A DNA stretch of 40,048 nt. Source: Trichomonas gallinae. Its lineage: Eukaryota. Every line of letters starts with the position of its first letter. Position 1 is the first letter of the stretch. Below, in pieces: positions 5,093-14,189 of this stretch. The stretch lies in contig MRSU01003882.1 in NCBI GenBank assembly GCA_008369845.1, positions 1-40,048 of the forward strand. Reading direction: 5' to 3'. The translations under genes were made by a program, and so were the position numbers. The notes under the pieces are model-generated. The model ran no database searches and was not told the DNA's origin. It worked only from the letters and a program-made list of their open reading frames with translations.

Positions 5093-6763
5093 TTATGCTT
5101 CGTAAAAATCGTGTTTCTTCTTGGATATCGACCAAATGCGCCACTTCTTGATAACTTTAGGATAAAATGCTAAATGTATTATGTAAATTATAGAAATGGT
5201 TATAACAATTATCACTCCTTCTGGCGTGTTATTGTTGCTAATGAAAGTTATCGATGGAATTCTTCTTGAATAAATTGATATTGATTGAATCTGTTTTGTT
5301 TTTGCTTTAATATGTTGAAAAACTGGCTGACATCTACCAAGACATTTAAAATAAGCATTTTCAAGATCAACTTCGACGTTTTCACCACAAAAAACAGCAT
5401 TTTCATATGAATCATCAATTCTCACTGAATTAATCGTCAATGAAGTGTTTCCTGCTGCATATATAAATGTGAAGTGTCCATTATTGAATTTCGATTCAGT
5501 TCTCTTGATAAAAACGTTCTGGGAATTTTCAATAAAAATTGATGGAGCAAAAGCGGCCGAATTATGCTTAAATGTACACATATCAGTTGAAAGAGAAGAA
5601 TTGCTTATAAAAGCAACAGCTGCTGCTTCTGTTGCCGAACAGAAATAAGCAGAAACATCAATCATAGAAATTGTTGAGTAATTCTTGGCTAAAACTGCAG
5701 ATCCATGTTTGGCTGATGAACGAATAAACTTACATGTATCTAAGGTTAGTGATGAGTTTGTTGAATCAATTGTATTGTTTTCCGTGCAATTTTCAAAATT
5801 ACACTTTGATAGAGAACCTATTGATTTGTAAGCAGAAATGATACAATTTGCAATAGAAAAGTTCGATTTTTCTATTGAAAACTTTGAATTATTAAACAAA
5901 GCAAAGATATTATTCTGTTTTTCTACAAATATTTGTGAAAACACGATATTTTTGGTATTTTTGATATCAAATATCGTGGAATAATCATGTGGTCCAAATA
6001 CTTTCGTAAAATTACAATCAGATATTATAATCTCAGAATATGATTGAGAATTAATGAGGCAAATATTTGATTTGTATAAAATTCGATTAAATGTAGTTGA
6101 TTCTATTCTAACATTTCCTGATTGGCCAATAATCAATGGAGATAAGAAGATATTTTTGATAAATTGACAATTTTTAATTATGCAATTGTTACTTTGTGAT
6201 ATTAATATATTGTCAATTGTGGAGTTGATTATACTTGAATCAATAATAGTTAAATTGATATTCTCGAACAATGGATTTGAAATATTTGTAGAAATTGTTG
6301 AATTCTGTATAAATAAATATACATGTGATGTAAACAAGAAGTTATATATGTTATTGATATTTATTGTTGAATTTGCAATTGTTATTTGTATATTTTGATC
6401 AACATCGAAAGAATTGTGAATATTTGAGATATTTAAAGCACAATACTCGAATATTGTGTCTGTGTTGATTGCATTTTGAAAGTCTATTGATGCTATGTCG
6501 ATTGAAAAATTTTTCCATATAATTTTCTTTAGATTGTTAATAGATTTGTTTAAAGATATATCATTTGTATCAAGTTTTTCGCCATTTCCTTTAACAATGA
6601 TTTCGCTGTATTCATTCTTTAAGATTTTTGTTAATTCAATTTTGATTTCCTTAGCATTAGTTATAGAAAATGACTCAGAGTCGCCATTTTTATGTCCAAT
6701 TACATTGATATTTGATGTTTCAAGACAATTCGCTTTGACAGCAAATATCAACGAAATCAACAA
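5093..6763 (-). CDS. Putative surface beta-helix (pectin-lyase/Pmp-like) type I membrane protein; lacks an ATG start
   Basis: 556-codon open frame with a hydrophobic N-terminus, I/N/S-rich repeats (CxFxxN motifs such as CNFENC, CKFIRSSA, CTFKHNSA) and a C-terminal TM segment followed by a basic tail. It begins at TTG. Confidence 0.65.
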   Translation of the reverse strand: MLISLIFAVKANCLETSNINVIGHKNGDSESFSITNAKEIKIELTKILKNEYSEIIVKGNGEKLDTNDISLNKSINNLKKIIWKNFSIDIASIDFQNAINTDTIFEYCALNISNIHNSFDVDQNIQITIANSTININNIYNFLFTSHVYLFIQNSTISTNISNPLFENINLTIIDSSIINSTIDNILISQSNNCIIKNCQFIKNIFLSPLIIGQSGNVRIESTTFNRILYKSNICLINSQSYSEIIISDCNFTKVFGPHDYSTIFDIKNTKNIVFSQIFVEKQNNIFALFNNSKFSIEKSNFSIANCIISAYKSIGSLSKCNFENCTENNTIDSTNSSLTLDTCKFIRSSAKHGSAVLAKNYSTISMIDVSAYFCSATEAAAVAFISNSSLSTDMCTFKHNSAAFAPSIFIENSQNVFIKRTESKFNNGHFTFIYAAGNTSLTINSVRIDDSYENAVFCGENVEVDLENAYFKCLGRCQPVFQHIKAKTKQIQSISIYSRRIPSITFISNNNTPEGVIIVITISIIYIIHLAFYPKVIKKWRIWSISKKKHDFYEA

Positions 6764-6767
6764 AACT

Positions 6768-7042
6768 AAAAGTGACAGGTTTATATTTCATATTTGACAG
6801 AATGCATTTTTTGAAACATATCCTCATAAGGCCTTTGATTTTTATATATATCATTAAAGTGACACTATTTCGAAAAGTGACAAAATTACCAAAAAGTAAT
6901 CAAATTATTATAAAAATGACGAATTTAATCTAAAAGCGATAATAGTCAATAAAAATGACAAAGTTTTCAATAAAAGTGACGAATAATCGTCAAAAGTGTC
7001 ATCATAAATTTTAAAAAGTGACAGAACATTTTTAAAAGTGAC
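6768..7042. promoter_or_regulatory. Array of AAAAGTGAC motifs in a divergent promoter
   Basis: AAA(A)GTGAC at 6768, 6856, 6873, 6972, 7014 and 7034, plus variants AAAAATGAC and AAAAGTGTC, between the surface-protein gene and thioredoxin. Confidence 0.7.
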
Positions 7043-7056
7043 AGCGCAAATTTTTA

Positions 7057-7407
7057 ATGGAGCATCCAGTAAATCTTTCATTATTTAATGGAACATTCGA
7101 TGATCTTAGCGCTGTTGTTTCAGGTGCAAATGGACTTGTCGTTGCTGTATTTGGAGCTCACTGGTGCCCTCCTTGCAAGAGATATGCCGAAATGTTGCCA
7201 AACATCGCTGCTGAATATCCAAAAGTTACTTTTCTTCAAATCAACACAGATGAGTCCGTAGAACTCGTTCAACATTATGCAATTTTCTCTATCCCACATA
7301 CAAAATTCTTAAAGGCTGGACAAGGAAACCAGATCCAGGAGCTCGCCGCCCTCACTGGATTCGACCTTTCTCAGATTAAGACGAAGATACAGCAATTCGG
7401 AAATTAA
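7057..7407 (+). CDS. trx: Thioredoxin
   Basis: 116 aa with a WCPPC active site, FGAHW before it, and the cis-Pro loop SIPHT. The stop codon overlaps TAAA. Confidence 0.92.
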   Translation: MEHPVNLSLFNGTFDDLSAVVSGANGLVVAVFGAHWCPPCKRYAEMLPNIAAEYPKVTFLQINTDESVELVQHYAIFSIPHTKFLKAGQGNQIQELAALTGFDLSQIKTKIQQFGN

Positions 7408-8572: not shown

Positions 8573-8642
8573 TGATTTTATTTGGAGATTTTTTTTTTAT
8601 TTTATTTTTCGCATCCATTTTAGATGTTTCCTGTCTTCATGA

Positions 8643-8786
8643 GCAGGTCATTATGAAATTGTCAAACTCCTTCTCATAGATAATGGAATATATGTCAACA
8701 CCAAAGACAAAAGATTGTTGACAGCTTTGATTATTGCTTTAGAAAAAGGTCATCATGAAATCGTAAAAGTATTGAAACGTTGCTAA
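8643..8786 (+). pseudogene. Ankyrin-repeat gene fragment
   Basis: Translates as AGHYEIVKLLLIDNGIYVNTKDKRLLTALIIALEKGHHEIVKVLKRC*. It is preceded in frame by TGA and has no ATG. Confidence 0.8.
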
Positions 8787-8905
8787 ATCATGGATATCAT
8801 CATTGTTTTGCGAAAGCATGGGCCACCACAGATGTTAGATCGTTAGAAACATATAATAAAACATAAATTTGTGCAAGACGATAAAATAAAGACATTTTTT
8901 ATTAA

Positions 8906-10705
8906 ATGTTGAAAAAACCATTATTGCGGGATGTTGTTGTTCCAGAAGACTTAAAGAATGACGTTGAAGTCATGAATACAATACTCAACCTAACATCAGA
9001 AACATTCGAGACAGCAGTTGAAAAAATTACAAATATAGTTAATAACGGATTCAATCCAAAAAAGCTAATGAAATACTGCGATTCTGCTGTTGAAGTTAGA
9101 AGGTGCAAATGGAAAATATATAAAAAGCTAATTTTACTATTTTCCAAAAAATACAACGTTGAATCCCTTTTGTTCAATGATGATATTGAAACATCATTCG
9201 ACAAATACATCCCAGGAACTGTCTGCTATTGTTGTATGTACGATGATATAGGAAAACTCACAGAAATAGCGAAAAATCCACATTTTAATTACAATATGAC
9301 TGATAATGATGATAAACATCTTCTTGATATTTGTGCTTCTTATGGATCAATTAATTGCTTCAACTTTTTGAGGACCAATAATGCAGACCTTACTGACAAG
9401 ACAATAGAACTAGCTGCTGAAGGCGGAAATCTCGAAATAATTAATCAGGCTCGAACAAATGTTAATGAATTTCATGATGAGATAAACATTGCAATAAGAT
9501 ATCATCATAATCATGTCGCTGATTATTTCATCGAGAAATATGGCAACAATCAATTCAATCTCACATCTGCAACGAGGTACAATAACATTATTGCAATCAC
9601 ATACTACAATCAGTATTTGAAACATTATTATTCCATTGATGCAACTCCAAATCCAAATCAATGGCACAACAGTTATTTGAGCAACCAGCTTAATAGCGCC
9701 ATAGTTGGAGGAAACATTAATCAAATTGATAGACTTGTTGAACATGGAGCTGATCCGAATTTTGTTGAAGAGGAAGAAGATGAGGATGATAGTGACTTTG
9801 TTCATTATACATTTATTATCCTGATGACGATGAGTTTGACTATGTCATTAAGAAGTCCAAACTTTCTCCTTTATTGAGTGCCGTCGTAAGTGGAAATCAT
9901 AAAGTTGTTGAAACTCTCCTCAAAAGCGGTGCAAATCCAAACAAAATTTCAGTTCATATTTTATGAATGGAATTCATTTTTAAAACTTATAAGACGAATC
10001 CTGTGCTTTATGCAGTTCAAGCGAAAAATAAGAAAATGATTGAGCTTCTTGTTAAATATGGTGGAAGTCTTGATAGAGAAATCGAAACATCATCAAGAAC
10101 AGTTAATTTTTCATTTATAATAGAGATGGATCTCAAGTTTATTTTTAGATTTATGAAATGAGCTCAACTTCTCCTTTTATTACTGCGGTCTCAACAGGAA
10201 ACATAGAGTTTGTCGAATATCTTCTCAAACTTGGTGCTGATATTGATGCTGAAGTTACAGTTGAAGTTCATTTTTCGTTTTATTCAGTTCAATTATTAAT
10301 TTATAGTGGAATTCATTTTTAGATTTATTATGCACACATTTATTTTCTTCGAATGAAACTCATCATAATATAAAGATATTCACAGAGAAATGACACCACT
10401 AATGGTTGCAGTCAGCTACAATAACATGGATATGGTAAAGTTTTTGGTTGAGCATGGCGCAGATATTCATAAAGGAACTGAAATCCATTATTTTTCTCAT
10501 TGTATTCATTATAATTAGATTACGTTCAATATTTTAAGTTATAAGATTCATCATAATAATATGACGAAGGAATTCAACATATATTTTTGAAGTATCATAT
10601 ACATCAACGCCAGTTTCAATTGCAAAAAGAGATGCTGATCGAAAGATGGTTAAATACCTTCTTGATCTTGGTGCTACGGATAATGATGAGGATTCAGATT
10701 ATTAA
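8906..10705 (+). CDS. DUF3447-type ankyrin-repeat protein interrupted by 15 tiny inserts (about 525 aa after their removal)
   Basis: The N-terminal ORF has ICASYGSINCFNFL and AIRYHHNHVADYF. Five further intact ankyrin repeats follow in shifting frames: SPLLSAVVSGNHKVVETLLKSGANPN, NPVLYAVQAKNKKMIELLVKYGG, SPFITAVSTGNIEFVEYLLKLGADID, TPLMVAVSYNNMDMVKFLVEHGADIH, TPVSIAKRDADRKMVKYLLDLGA. The frame ends at TAA(A) 10703-10705. Coding identity is clear; functionality and junctions are inferred. Confidence 0.75.
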
Positions 10706-11838
10706 AATCATTCAAATAAATCATTTTATTTTCACAATCAAATTATTATTTTTGATTGAAGTGTCTATTTCAAGTCTATGTAATGAAACGATAATATATT
10801 TATCCAATTATTAGTGAAAATTATATAACAAGACATCAATAACAATTAATTTATTTTGATTAAAAAAAATGCAAGGAAAAATGGATATAGCCATCAGTTA
10901 TTTGGAAATACATCCTCAATAGTGTTCAAATGTAATCAATAAAGTTAGATTTAGACAACTTTTAAAAAGCTAAAATATGATGGTTACAGTTTATTCTATT
11001 ATTCTATTTCATTTGATCAAAACCAAAACTGTTAAATTTAGAGCGGTCGTGTGTCAAATAGTGAGATGTTGAAAAATGAATTACAACATTTGCAAATCAG
11101 AGCTTATCGATATGAACTCTACATGACAAAAATATATCTGATTTCAAATTAATGAATTGTTATGAGTCATCCAATACTATTACTTCGATAGTTATATATT
11201 AAAAAAAATAAATAATAAAAAACATCTTTGATTATTGCTTCAGTTAATGAACATTAGTAAAAAGTCATGTTATGTTATACTATTCCTTGCTAATGACAGA
11301 ATATAAGAGTCCGTATCTGTATATTATGTCCATTGGACTTGATTTTTTATAATTCTGCCTTTATTTCATTTGATATATTTATGACACTTTACATAAAAAC
11401 GTTGCGCGGAATTGTTGGTTCCTTTGTTTTTTAATCCTATTATACTACTAAAGTCTATGGCTCACGTATAGAATCGCCCGAGTTGAATAAATGTAAAAAA
11501 TAAAATATTGCGGTGGAAAATGGATGCTTTAACTCGTAATTATTGTTCCAAATTTAAATTAAATTGTCGTTTTCCAAATTAAACTTTCAATGATACAATT
11601 TTGAAAATTGAATATCAATTTAAAATGAAAGTAATAATAAACTTAATAGTGATAGATTCCCTGCAATTTTACGATATGCTATTGCGCCCGTAAAACACTT
11701 GAAAATTTGAAGAAATATTTGTTTACAATCTCTTCATTAGAATGTGCGCAAATTTTGAGTCAATTTTTTTTGAATCCAACTCATTTTGTTTACGTGACAG
11801 TTTTCACATCTTTGTTGAACTTTGCATATCTACATCCA

Positions 11839-13095
11839 ATGAGCATATTTTTCTGCGATCTTTTTGAATACTTCTCACAAAAAATTGAATGGGATAAATT
11901 TTATTTTTATTTAATGGTTGAGTATGTTTGTATCAATAAGGAAACATTGATTCACAAGTCCATCAAAGAGTTCCGTGTTCCTCAATGTTTGGAACAGTTC
12001 GATTACGTTGACAGATTATTTTTTGATTTAAATATCGATAATGCTACAGCTCTTAACTTGATATTTCATGCGTTTCAAATAAATCGTAATGTTATTAGTT
12101 TTTTACTTAAAAAAGACACACAAAACACAAAATTGGAATCAAGAAAATCATATTTCAATATTTTCATGTCTGCTCATGGTTTTTCACCACATTTTCCCAT
12201 AATTTACAATACATTTTGTGGAAGTATAAATTCTGCAATTGCCCAAGATAATCTTGATTTTGTCATAGAAAATTTTGCCCTAGATTTAACTAGAATGAAT
12301 GAACATTTAGGACCCCACTTTTTTGATATCGCTTGTAAGTTTGGCTCAATGAAATGTTACAGGTTTTTAAAAATTAATGGAGTGAAATGTACCGAAAATT
12401 CTGCAAAATATTCCATTGCATCAGGAAACCCTGAGATGGTTATGGACTTTTATAACAACGGTTTCGATCTAAGTAACTTCTTTCAGTATGCAATTAACTG
12501 CAGACAGTATGATATTGCTGATTGGCTGCTCGACAATTATTCAAAAGTTTACATTTCTTCCAATGAATGCCTAAAAGAAGGAAATTTGCGAGGTGCTTGT
12601 TTTTGTTTAGAAAACAAAATCCCTTTTTCGGTAGAAAACTTTCATGAGCTTTATCATGATATAGAAGAAAAGTCTACGTTAGAATATTTGCTGGATAATT
12701 CACCAGAAGAATTGATTGATGAAGTTTATGTAAAGTCATTAATTGATGCAGATTTTAATGTGCTCTCAGCATTGGCAGAACGCGGATATAATATGAACAG
12801 AATCATTGAGCATAGATGGAAATATAACTGTAAACAAATTTGCCCTCTTCTAGCTGCTGCATTTCATTGTAATGATGAGTTGTATCAGTTCTTAATAGAT
12901 CATGGTGCTGATGAAAATCTTGAATTAGTTAATAACAGATATTCCATCATAGATTGCAAAAATAATACTTTCAAATATAAATTATTTAAATTAGACTTGT
13001 GTGTCTGTTGTAATACAACAGCTCGTATGATTGGATGTTTTATTATCTTCGCGATGCTTATAACCTTATTTGTTTGCATAGGAATCTATCATTAA
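11839..13095 (+). CDS. DUF3447-type ankyrin-repeat protein with C-terminal transmembrane segment
   Basis: Contains IACKFGSMKCYRFL, AINCRQYDIADWLL, CPLLAAAFHCNDELYQFLIDHGAD and a hydrophobic C-terminus. The start is ATG 11839 or 11914; the ORF-track start at 11707 is TTG. The frame is uninterrupted. Confidence 0.8.
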   Translation: MSIFFCDLFEYFSQKIEWDKFYFYLMVEYVCINKETLIHKSIKEFRVPQCLEQFDYVDRLFFDLNIDNATALNLIFHAFQINRNVISFLLKKDTQNTKLESRKSYFNIFMSAHGFSPHFPIIYNTFCGSINSAIAQDNLDFVIENFALDLTRMNEHLGPHFFDIACKFGSMKCYRFLKINGVKCTENSAKYSIASGNPEMVMDFYNNGFDLSNFFQYAINCRQYDIADWLLDNYSKVYISSNECLKEGNLRGACFCLENKIPFSVENFHELYHDIEEKSTLEYLLDNSPEELIDEVYVKSLIDADFNVLSALAERGYNMNRIIEHRWKYNCKQICPLLAAAFHCNDELYQFLIDHGADENLELVNNRYSIIDCKNNTFKYKLFKLDLCVCCNTTARMIGCFIIFAMLITLFVCIGIYH

Positions 13096-13766: not shown

Positions 13767-14189
13767 TTAGAAAACGGCAGGAGCTACTGAAGCAACCTTA
13801 GGCCATAATTCTGCTGCTTCCTTAGCTACTGGTCCAGTGATAGCTGAACCCTTCATTTCACCCTTTTCGTTAATGATAACACCAGCATTATCCTGGAAAC
13901 CAATTACAACACCATCCTTGCGGCGCCAAATAGCGCGCTGGCGGACAACGACTCCCATTGAGACTTTCTTGCGGAGAGCTGGTTTACCCTTTTTGCATGT
14001 AACGACGATGAGGTCAGAAACTGAAGCAGCTGGAAGACGGTTAAGACGACCCTTATGTCCGCGAACTGAAATGATAAACATGTTCTTAGCGCCTGAGTTG
14101 TCGCAGCAGTTGATAACAGCACCAACTGGAAGACCCTCTGTCATTGCAAACTTTGTACCCTGCTGACCTGTGCGACCGCGCTTTGTAAT
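13767..14189 (-). CDS. RPL23: 60S ribosomal protein L23 (uL14); ATT at the expected start position
   Basis: Contains KRGR...[42 protein letters not shown] and [15 protein letters not shown]. It is 140 aa counted from ATT 14189. Confidence 0.95.

What the first reader, a model, noticed from the sequence alone, without database searches (positions are those of the whole stretch)
9800..10588. Fifteen tiny (14-17 nt) non-GT-AG inserts whose removal rebuilds one 525-aa ankyrin protein: candidate undescribed micro-intron/editing/bypass system
Seen in sequence: every frameshift and stop in this gene disappears when these segments are removed: 9801-9814 TTCATTATACATTT; 9953-9966 TTCATATTTTATGA; 9973-9988 TTCATTTTTAAAACTT; 10103-10116 TTAATTTTTCATTT; 10138-10152 TTTATTTTTAGATTT; 10267-10281 TTCATTTTTCGTTTT; 10288-10302 TTCAATTATTAATTT; 10312-10326 TTCATTTTTAGATTT; 10339-10352 TTTATTTTCTTCGA; 10359-10375 CTCATCATAATATAAAG (least certain); 10484-10498 TCCATTATTTTTCTC; 10505-10518 TTCATTATAATTAG; 10525-10540 TTCAATATTTTAAGTT; 10547-10560 TTCATCATAATAAT; 10573-10586 TTCAACATATATTT. 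All 15 follow a purine at codon position 1. Ten begin TTCA and the other five differ by one base. Fourteen are followed by AT, so the junction codon is GAT or AAT (Asp/Asn). Total removed is 222 nt, leaving 1578 nt of open frame from ATG 8906 to TAA 10705. The ankyrin helices between the insert clusters carry no lesions, which is unlike random pseudogene decay. Established: known trichomonad introns are spliceosomal GT-AG with a conserved branch point/3' motif, and the smallest known spliceosomal introns (15-16 nt, heterotrich ciliates) are GT-AG; these elements fit neither. Inference: they may be removed by non-canonical splicing, RNA deletion editing or ribosomal hopping. I chose the boundaries by hand, they could shift by 1-2 nt, and I cannot confirm the pattern is unpublished.
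Basis: partly seen in the sequence, partly recalled or inferred. Interest (0 to 1): 0.95.

Follow-up and report, generated by a model that had tools for sequence, protein, structure and literature searches.

The report
Tiny non-standard introns in Trichomonas ankyrins
A Trichomonas ankyrin gene is interrupted by fifteen 17-19-base inserts without the usual GT-AG intron ends; a close relative's DNA keeps all of them while contigs of a probable RNA sample lack every one they cover, so they are likely an undescribed class of tiny introns that may explain some broken-looking genes in these parasites.

Summary
A relative's DNA contig (X1, about 92% identical) keeps all 15 with no indel. Contigs of run X2 (RNA by the tool's guess; same lineage as X1) lack all 12 they cover, one contig lacking nine at once. 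X2 fixes the elements as 17-19 nt, all phase 0, mostly GT..AT or AT..AT, consensus RTTCATTWT...TAT, 264 nt in all, leaving a 511-aa DUF3447-ankyrin protein with six single-codon exons in the repeat loops. None ends in AG or has the trichomonad branch motif; no structure, almost no junction repeats. Shuffles never restore the frame (0 of 1000, twice). Annotated T. vaginalis ankyrin proteins break at the same loop with the predicted read-through residues. Best reading: a third, ultra-short intron class, likely spliceosomal, which motif-filtered Trichomonas intron surveys would discard. Main gap: X2's RNA status rests on the tool's guess; the control could not be run, and the machinery is untested.

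The parts
8906..10705 (+). Whole gene, ATG to TAA; 16 exons, 1536 nt coding, 511 aa after removal of 15 elements (DUF3447 + ankyrin repeats)
8906..9799 (+). Exon 1; holds DUF3447 (residues 159-234) and ankyrin matches; unspliced frame runs into element 1 and stops at 9877
9800..9816 (+). Element 1, 17 nt, GT..AT; X2 lacks 17 nt here, placed by the aligner at 9801 (this register needs one substitution at 9817)
9817..9951 (+). Exon, 135 nt, one ankyrin repeat
9952..9968 (+). Element 2, 17 nt, GT..AT; absent in X2
9969..9971 (+). Single-codon exon, kept in X2
9972..9990 (+). Element 3, 19 nt, AT..AT; absent in X2
9991..10101 (+). Exon, 111 nt, one ankyrin repeat (weak Pfam match); X2 record 14 stops aligning exactly at 10101 with 46 letters left over
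10102..10118 (+). Element 4, 17 nt, GT..AT; borders by analogy, 3' border not seen in X2
10137..10154 (+). Element 5, 18 nt, GT..AT; by analogy, untested (18-nt exon 10119-10136 before it)
10155..10265 (+). Exon, 111 nt, one ankyrin repeat
10266..10283 (+). Element 6, 18 nt, GT..AT; absent in X2; followed by single-codon exon 10284-10286
10287..10304 (+). Element 7, 18 nt, GT..AT; absent in X2; followed by 6-nt exon
10311..10328 (+). Element 8, 18 nt, AT..AT; absent in X2; followed by 9-nt exon
10338..10354 (+). Element 9, 17 nt, AT..AT; absent in X2; followed by single-codon exon 10355-10357
10358..10374 (+). Element 10, 17 nt, AC..AA (can slide 2 nt left); absent in X2; poorest motif match
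10375..10482 (+). Exon, 108 nt, one ankyrin repeat (Pfam Ank E 2e-9)
10483..10500 (+). Element 11, 18 nt, AT..AT; absent in X2; followed by single-codon exon 10501-10503
10504..10520 (+). Element 12, 17 nt, AT..AT; absent in X2; followed by single-codon exon 10521-10523; a GT..AG register 2 nt left exists but fits X2 worse
10524..10542 (+). Element 13, 19 nt, GT..AT; absent in X2; followed by single-codon exon 10543-10545
10546..10562 (+). Element 14, 17 nt, AT..AT; absent in X2; followed by 9-nt exon
10572..10588 (+). Element 15, 17 nt, AT..TT; by analogy, untested
10589..10705 (+). Last exon, capping repeat-like segment and stop (no Pfam match)

Best explanation
The fifteen 17-19-nt segments are likely introns of an undescribed, ultra-short class that are cut out of the transcript, most likely by the trichomonad spliceosome working with relaxed terminal bases, to give a predicted 511-aa DUF3447-ankyrin protein whose repeat loops are spelled by exons of one to six codons. 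Shown: the segments, their motif (RTTCATTWT...TAT), phase 0, their presence in a relative's DNA and their exact absence from contigs of run X2. Inferred: that X2 is RNA; that the spliceosome does it, recognising a type-B-like 5' end, keeping the inner U(+2) and A(-2) of GU..AG, measuring 17-19 nt and using an unidentified branch A; that introns are removed one after another, since 3-nt exons leave no room for two machines; that the arrays grew by duplication of intron-plus-codon units and of whole ankyrin repeats, which explains the single phase. Speculative: skipping of the in-frame micro-exons could vary the loop sequence.
For: X2 contigs lack 12 of the 12 elements they cover: 17 nt left out at 9801 (depth 3.7 of 3.7), joint 9952 to 9991 with 2 letters between, and record 15 (151 nt) whose loose ends spell the exons between elements 6-10 and 11-14; X1 DNA record 7 spans 9767-10757 with one gap, at 10703, and shows neither joined form. 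X1 and X2 share 8 listed substitutions in 9107-9291, where X2 has 10 differences from the window, so loss in X2's lineage would have to be very recent. One uniform shift of the borders explains 25/25, 15/16 and 14/14 letters. Length is constrained: 0 indels in 264 element bases against 4 in 116 upstream non-coding bases (P 0.009 conditional). Motif: R 15/15 at +1, T 14/15 at +2 and +3, A 15/15 at +5, T 14/15 at +9, A 14/15 at -2, T 14/15 at -1. 6 of 7 G-starting elements match the type B 5' motif GTWYWD, 12 of 15 match RTWYWD (motif from PMC6260720). GT-AT and AT-AN ends are known to be spliceable by a spliceosome (U12-type; PMC1557818). No fold (z -1.35 to +0.65 in 6 stretches), no junction repeat in 9 of 15 and at most 2 nt, no Rfam match of note. 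Homologues break at the same loop: signature [VI][HQYN][YFIHLN*] after 11 of 39 terminal loops against 29 of 355 internal loops, P 0.0006; T. vaginalis G3 TVAG_445390 and TVAG_004680 are among them.
Against: X2 is RNA only by the tool's guess, is held as contigs at depth 3-4, comes from another lineage than the window, and the RNA-versus-DNA control could not be run; the two runs on record as RNA (X3, X4) laid nothing. The register was fitted after seeing X2. Elements 4, 5 and 15 are untested; element 1 was placed one base right of my register; elements 10 and 15 end AC..AA and AT..TT. 0 of 15 hold CTAA or end in AG, the signals that all 63 curated T. vaginalis introns carry, and the same paper reports no U12-type introns (PMC12316389). 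The loose rule also matches 106 sites (35 in phase 0) in 24,195 nt of intact coding sequence, so the motif alone does not explain specificity. The position-free tail test was not significant (41 of 150 against 546 of 2393, P 0.23). No spliced full-length form of TVAG_445390 was found among proteins.
Confidence: 0.6

Rival explanations
1. The segments are removed from RNA, but by a spliceosome-independent cut-and-ligate system (a sequence-guided or guide-RNA-guided nuclease plus an RNA ligase such as RtcB), possibly in the cytoplasm and tied to the reading frame.
For: No branch motif, no AG end; shorter than any known trichomonad intron (23 nt); all 15 in phase 0 and 3-nt exons. XBP1/HAC1 splicing shows that short introns can be removed this way (listing; mechanism recalled).
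Against: No hairpins or bulge-helix-bulge-like fold and no inverted repeats at the ends; U(+2)/A(-2) and the type-B-like 5' end point to spliceosomal signals; single phase is explained by common descent.
Confidence: 0.22
2. X2 is DNA, or the transcript of an intron-less copy, from a lineage that has lost the segments at DNA level; the window's and X1's genes may be silent.
For: X2's library is not on record and depth 3-4 with patchy cover (15 of 30 bins) fits low-cover DNA as well as a weak transcript. An intron-less paralogue of an intron-bearing gene is known in T. vaginalis (PMC12316389).
Against: X1 DNA at depth about 24 shows no joined form; X1 and X2 share substitutions; exact loss of 12 segments around 3-nt spacers would itself need a spliced template; lengths are conserved between window and X1. 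X2's gene pieces lie only in coding parts.
Confidence: 0.1
3. The joined contigs are artefacts (reverse-transcriptase slippage or assembly) and the gene is a decayed pseudogene with AT-rich insertions.
For: Low depth, contigs only; many Trichomonas genes look split (bioRxiv 10.64898/2026.08.31.748405).
Against: Nine exact, frame-keeping deletions in one 151-nt contig; no junction repeats or hairpins; shared motif and narrow length; shuffles never restore the frame; no indels across about 8% divergence.
Confidence: 0.05
4. The mRNA keeps the segments and ribosomes hop over or read through them.
For: All in phase 0; stop read-through has been proposed for Trichomonas multi-ORF transcripts, ankyrin genes among them.
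Against: X2 lacks the segments; 10 of 15 are not multiples of three, so read-through alone cannot keep the frame.
Confidence: 0.03

Closest known systems
Trichomonas type B spliceosomal introns (GTWYWD-N7-TCTAACH1-2-AACAG, 23-26 nt; PMC6260720, PMC12316389)
   Same: Same genus; short, T-rich, fixed length; 5' hexamer matches in 6 of 7 G-starting elements.
   Different: 17-19 nt, 8 of 15 start with A, none has TCTAAC or ends AG; 15 in one gene, whereas almost all known ones are single.
Tiny introns of Stentor coeruleus (15-16 nt; PMC9505925) and Bigelowiella natans (18 nt; cited in PMC12316389)
   Same: Size range, AU-richness, weak branch consensus, length-defined.
   Different: Stentor introns mostly begin GU and end AG with a branch A fixed 6 nt from the end; here ends are RT..AT and A at -6 is only 9 of 15.
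Non-canonical U12-type introns with AT-AT, AT-AA, GT-AT ends (PMC1557818)
   Same: The same terminal pairs.
   Different: No U12 5' motif (position +3 is never A), no U12 branch, far shorter than U12 introns (recalled); Trichomonas reported to lack U12 introns.
Non-canonical introns and introners of Amoebophrya (PMC7789003), euglenid nonconventional introns (abstract listing)
   Same: Introns without GT-AG in a protist nucleus.
   Different: Those carry end-pairing structure or inverted/direct repeats and variable ends; these have one motif, one size and no structure.
Single-codon micro-exons, e.g. Drosophila sowah (3-nt FlyBase exons, PMC8042270 supplement)
   Same: One-codon exons; an earlier AI note places them in ankyrin hairpins.
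   Different: There the flanking introns are about a kilobase (two listed exons lie 1.1 kb apart); here 3-nt exons sit between 17-19-nt non-GT-AG introns.
Trichomonas split and 'readthrough' genes (bioRxiv 10.64898/2026.08.31.748405)
   Same: Adjacent ORF fragments of one protein on one transcript; ankyrin genes among them.
   Different: Explained there as stop read-through; here the stops and frameshifts lie inside segments that X2 lacks.

Membership tests
Trichomonas type A/B U2 spliceosomal introns | GT at 5' end and AG at 3' end | tested here: not met
   GT start 7 of 15, AG end 0 of 15; one shifted GT..AG register at element 12 fits X2 worse
Trichomonas type A/B U2 spliceosomal introns | Branch motif (R/T)CTAAC fused to the 3' end | tested here: not met
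   CTAA in 0 of 15
Trichomonas type A/B U2 spliceosomal introns | Type B 5' motif GTWYWD | tested here: inconclusive
   6 of 15 exact, 12 of 15 with A allowed at +1; the motif is loose in AT-rich DNA
Trichomonas type A/B U2 spliceosomal introns | Length 23-26 or 50-196 nt | tested here: not met
   17 nt x8, 18 nt x5, 19 nt x2
Spliceosomal introns in general | Absent from mature mRNA, present in DNA | tested here: inconclusive
   12 of 12 absent in X2, 15 of 15 present in X1, but X2's RNA status is a guess and the runs are different samples
Spliceosomal introns in general | Lariat intermediate and snRNP dependence | not testable with these tools
   needs bench work
U12-type introns | Terminal pairs GT-AG, AT-AC or rare AT-AN / GT-AT | tested here: met
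   GT..AT 7, AT..AT 6 of 15 (rare pairs in PMC1557818)
U12-type introns | 5' motif RTATCC and CCTTAAC-type branch (motifs recalled) | tested here: not met
   +3 is T 14, C 1, A 0; no CTAA
tRNA-endonuclease or IRE1-type introns | Conserved bulge-helix-bulge or twin stem-loops at the junctions (recalled) | tested here: not met
   6 stretches fold no better than shuffles, no shared structure
Introners / transposon-derived introns | Terminal inverted and flanking direct repeats, near-identical copies | tested here: not met
   junction repeats 0-2 nt, mean pairwise identity 56%; no end-to-end inverted repeats
DUF3447 + ankyrin repeat proteins | PF11929 followed by ankyrin repeats | tested here: met
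   DUF3447 34.9 bits over cut-off 26.9; Ank over cut-off in 3 of 5 downstream exon pieces

The most novel reading that the evidence does not exclude
Parabasalids run a second, dedicated splicing activity (a remodelled spliceosome or a spliceosome-independent nuclease-ligase) that removes hundreds or more 17-19-nt RT..AT introns, mainly from ankyrin loops; many 'split' or pseudogene-like Trichomonas genes are intact, and skipping of single-codon exons diversifies ankyrin binding loops.
Probability: 0.3. Interest if true: 0.98.

Novelty: new variant of a known kind. Interest (0 to 1): 0.92.

Why it matters
Trichomonas is held to be intron-poor (48-63 introns, all GT-AG, shortest 23 nt, almost never two per gene). 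One gene here carries 15 shorter introns of another signal type. It fails the defining tests of every intron class I compared, so it is at least a new intron class, and categorically new if the spliceosome is not involved. Both recent surveys kept only junctions with the known motifs, so this class would have been filtered out. It offers a directly testable answer to part of an old puzzle, the 1,465 split genes of T. vaginalis, 923 by frameshift, using RNA data that already exist. It also bears on the lower size limit and terminal-base rules of splicing and on how 3-nt exons between 17-nt introns can be processed.

Tried and rejected
No whole genome is held, so no genome-wide count. No run on record as RNA holds the stretch ('no RNA holder listed'); X3 and X4 laid nothing: no evidence either way. 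The planned control of X2 on a ribosomal-protein gene and two intergenic stretches, which would also have shown elements 4, 5, 15 and X1's letters inside the elements, was not obtained; X2's nature stays open. Word-index protein searches found no relative of exon 1 (0 of 638 candidates) and no spliced or longer form of TVAG_445390; weak negatives. tblastn-confirmed loci for two T. vaginalis proteins: none. RNA structure, tandem repeats in 9800-10588 (none listed), Rfam: nothing. A matrix scan of the window at score 9 gave 84 hits, 14 of them the elements themselves (element 10 missed), with no second cluster. Initiator-like TCAYTW occurs in 5 of 15 but cannot explain joined contigs. Position-free tail test not significant. 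PMC2491460 (snRNAs) is not held, so snRNA pairing was not examined. Supplements of PMC12316389 and PMC13548475 were not read and bioRxiv supplements are closed; discarded junction lists there may bear on novelty.

Full report
Setting. The window is from a Trichomonas species: its thioredoxin (7057-7404) falls in one 90% cluster with a T. vaginalis G3 protein; no genome is held. The gene at 8906-10705 begins with a 323-codon ORF holding DUF3447 and ankyrin matches; four of five downstream exon pieces match Pfam ankyrin models.

Observation. The test came from public runs. Four were listed and laid on 8700-10900. X1 (DNA by the tool's guess, bird metagenome) has one contig over 9767-10757 with 76 other letters and a single gap, at 10703: all 15 segments are present at unchanged length. 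X2 (RNA by the tool's guess) shares 8 listed substitutions with X1 in 9107-9291, where it has 10 differences from the window, and a 12-nt insertion at 9766. It lacks every segment it covers: 17 nt left out at 9801; a joint from 9952 to 9991 with two letters between; and record 15, whose 110 aligned bases (10373-10482) are flanked by 25 and 16 loose letters. X3 and X4 laid nothing. They fit at 25/25, 15/16 and 14/14 if each element includes the purine before and two bases after (element 10 fitted singly). This register was chosen after seeing X2, but one shift explains all three. Twelve elements (1-3, 6-14) are thus tested; 4, 5 and 15 rest on analogy, though record 14 stops aligning exactly at 10101, the base before element 4, with 46 letters left that the tool did not list.

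Anatomy. Elements are 17 (8), 18 (5) or 19 (2) nt, 264 nt in all, 85% AT against 63% in the exons between them, all phase 0; product 511 aa; inner exons 135, 3, 111, 18, 111, 3, 6, 9, 3, 108, 3, 3, 3 and 9 nt. They sit only in the loops between ankyrin repeats. Ends are GT..AT (7), AT..AT (6), AC..AA and AT..TT; nine cannot slide at all. Consensus RTTCATTWT...TAT, with A at +5 invariant. None holds CTAA or ends AG; 6 match the type B 5' motif GTWYWD and 12 RTWYWD. No fold beyond shuffles, no end repeats, no Rfam match of note.

Chance and constraint. A loose rule that accepts all 15 carries the frame through 903 of 903 nt; 0 of 1000 dinucleotide shuffles and 0 of 1000 in-place element shuffles do, and intergenic stretches reach at most 366 nt (one exception was a plain open frame). 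Between window and X1 there are 0 indels in 264 element bases and 4 in 116 upstream non-coding bases (conditional P 0.009). Against: the same loose rule matches 106 sites, 35 in phase 0, in 24,195 nt of intact genes, so further determinants must exist.

Spread. A HMMER search with exon 1 gave 653 proteins at E 0.001; the best 150 were examined. Many end a few residues after an ankyrin loop in F/I/Y/L/H-rich tails (34 of 150 tails at 50% or more, against 14% of internal windows). The signature fixed from the window's elements read in phase 0 follows 11 of 39 terminal loops and 29 of 355 internal loops (P 0.0006), though some hits are doubtful and a position-free version was not significant (41 of 150 against 546 of 2393, P 0.23). 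Of 20 proteins picked for such tails and looked up, five cluster with named T. vaginalis G3 proteins and one is from Tritrichomonas foetus. TVAG_004680 carries between two repeats IQYCSH, one residue, then VHFKFI, which is what an 18-nt element, a single codon and a 17-nt element would give by the window's pattern; TVAG_445390 ends IQYYF-stop. This is protein-level inference: no parabasalid DNA could be fetched and no spliced protein form was found.

Mechanism. Removal at RNA level I put at about 0.82. X1's DNA shows no joined form at depth 24, and exact loss of twelve segments around 3-nt spacers would need a spliced template anyway. The weak point is that X2 is RNA only by guess, at depth 3-4, from another lineage, and the control on expressed and silent stretches was not obtained. 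For the machinery I favour the spliceosome (0.6): the inner U(+2) and A(-2) of GU..AG are kept, the 5' end is type-B-like, length is narrow as in Stentor's 15-16-nt introns (PMC9505925 passages), and GT-AT and AT-AN ends can be spliced by a spliceosome (PMC1557818 passages). Against it stand the missing branch motif and AG, which all curated trichomonad introns have, and the reported absence of U12 introns (PMC12316389). A nuclease-ligase route stays open (0.22). Sequential removal, growth by duplication of intron-plus-codon units, and loop variation by micro-exon skipping are inferences; X2 shows one isoform only.

Literature. Seen: PMC12316389 abstract, Results part 1 of 2, Discussion part 1 of 2, passages; PMC13548475 abstract, passages, one Methods section; bioRxiv 10.64898/2026.08.31.748405 parts 1-3 of 4 (27, 29, 30); passages of PMC6260720, PMC6679479, PMC10711314, PMC9505925, PMC13735942, PMC11978803, PMC7789003, PMC13149111, PMC1557818, PMC8042270 with a supplement search. 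Ten full-text searches showed no description of 17-19-nt non-GT-AG introns in parabasalids; subscription papers and unread supplements are outside this. Both recent intron surveys required the known motifs. The 2026 preprint recalls 1,465 split genes, 923 by frameshift, and explains multi-ORF transcripts, ankyrin genes among them, by read-through. Earlier AI notes on single-codon exons in ankyrin hairpins of other eukaryotes are leads only; I confirmed just that two 3-nt sowah exons are FlyBase-annotated.

Verdict. Real feature, borders corrected, RNA-level removal well supported but not proven, machinery untested. It works like an intron and is a member of no class tested: a new variant of introns at least, categorically new if the spliceosome is not involved. 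Interest 0.92.

Noticed in passing
window 5093-6790 (-): A frame open for about 560 codons with a signal-peptide-like start and a hydrophobic C-terminal segment has no in-frame ATG at its 5' end; an ATG at 6791 lies one base out of frame. Assembly error or a young lesion; not explained by an element.
   Followed up: partly
window 14187-14189 (-): The ribosomal-protein-like ORF 13767-14144 (L23-like, recalled) continues upstream to an ATT where an ATG would be expected; possible single-base error in the window or a non-ATG start.
   Followed up: no
window 8600-8790 (+): Degenerate ankyrin fragment with a stop, matching a high-copy family (X1 summed depth 3010), preceded in phase by an element-like 17-mer at 8613-8629.
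   Followed up: no
window 11839-13095 (+): Second DUF3447-ankyrin gene, unbroken, ending after one ankyrin loop in a long hydrophobic tail; no high-scoring element at that loop.
   Followed up: partly
proteins P0055, P0089, P0159: A second tail type: the protein stops soon after the repeat loop in V-L/F-F and an F/I-rich tail (P0055 is Tritrichomonas foetus). May mark another or a broader intron class in parabasalid ankyrin genes.
   Followed up: no
proteins P0138 and P0162 (TVAG_284010): Near-identical proteins differ by a frameshift just after the loop; one ends VH-stop, the other reads the same DNA in another frame, compatible with a GTTCAT-type 5' end there.
   Followed up: no
window 9800-10588 (+): 5 of 15 elements contain TCAYTW at +3, the same as the Trichomonas initiator motif (motif recalled).
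   Followed up: no
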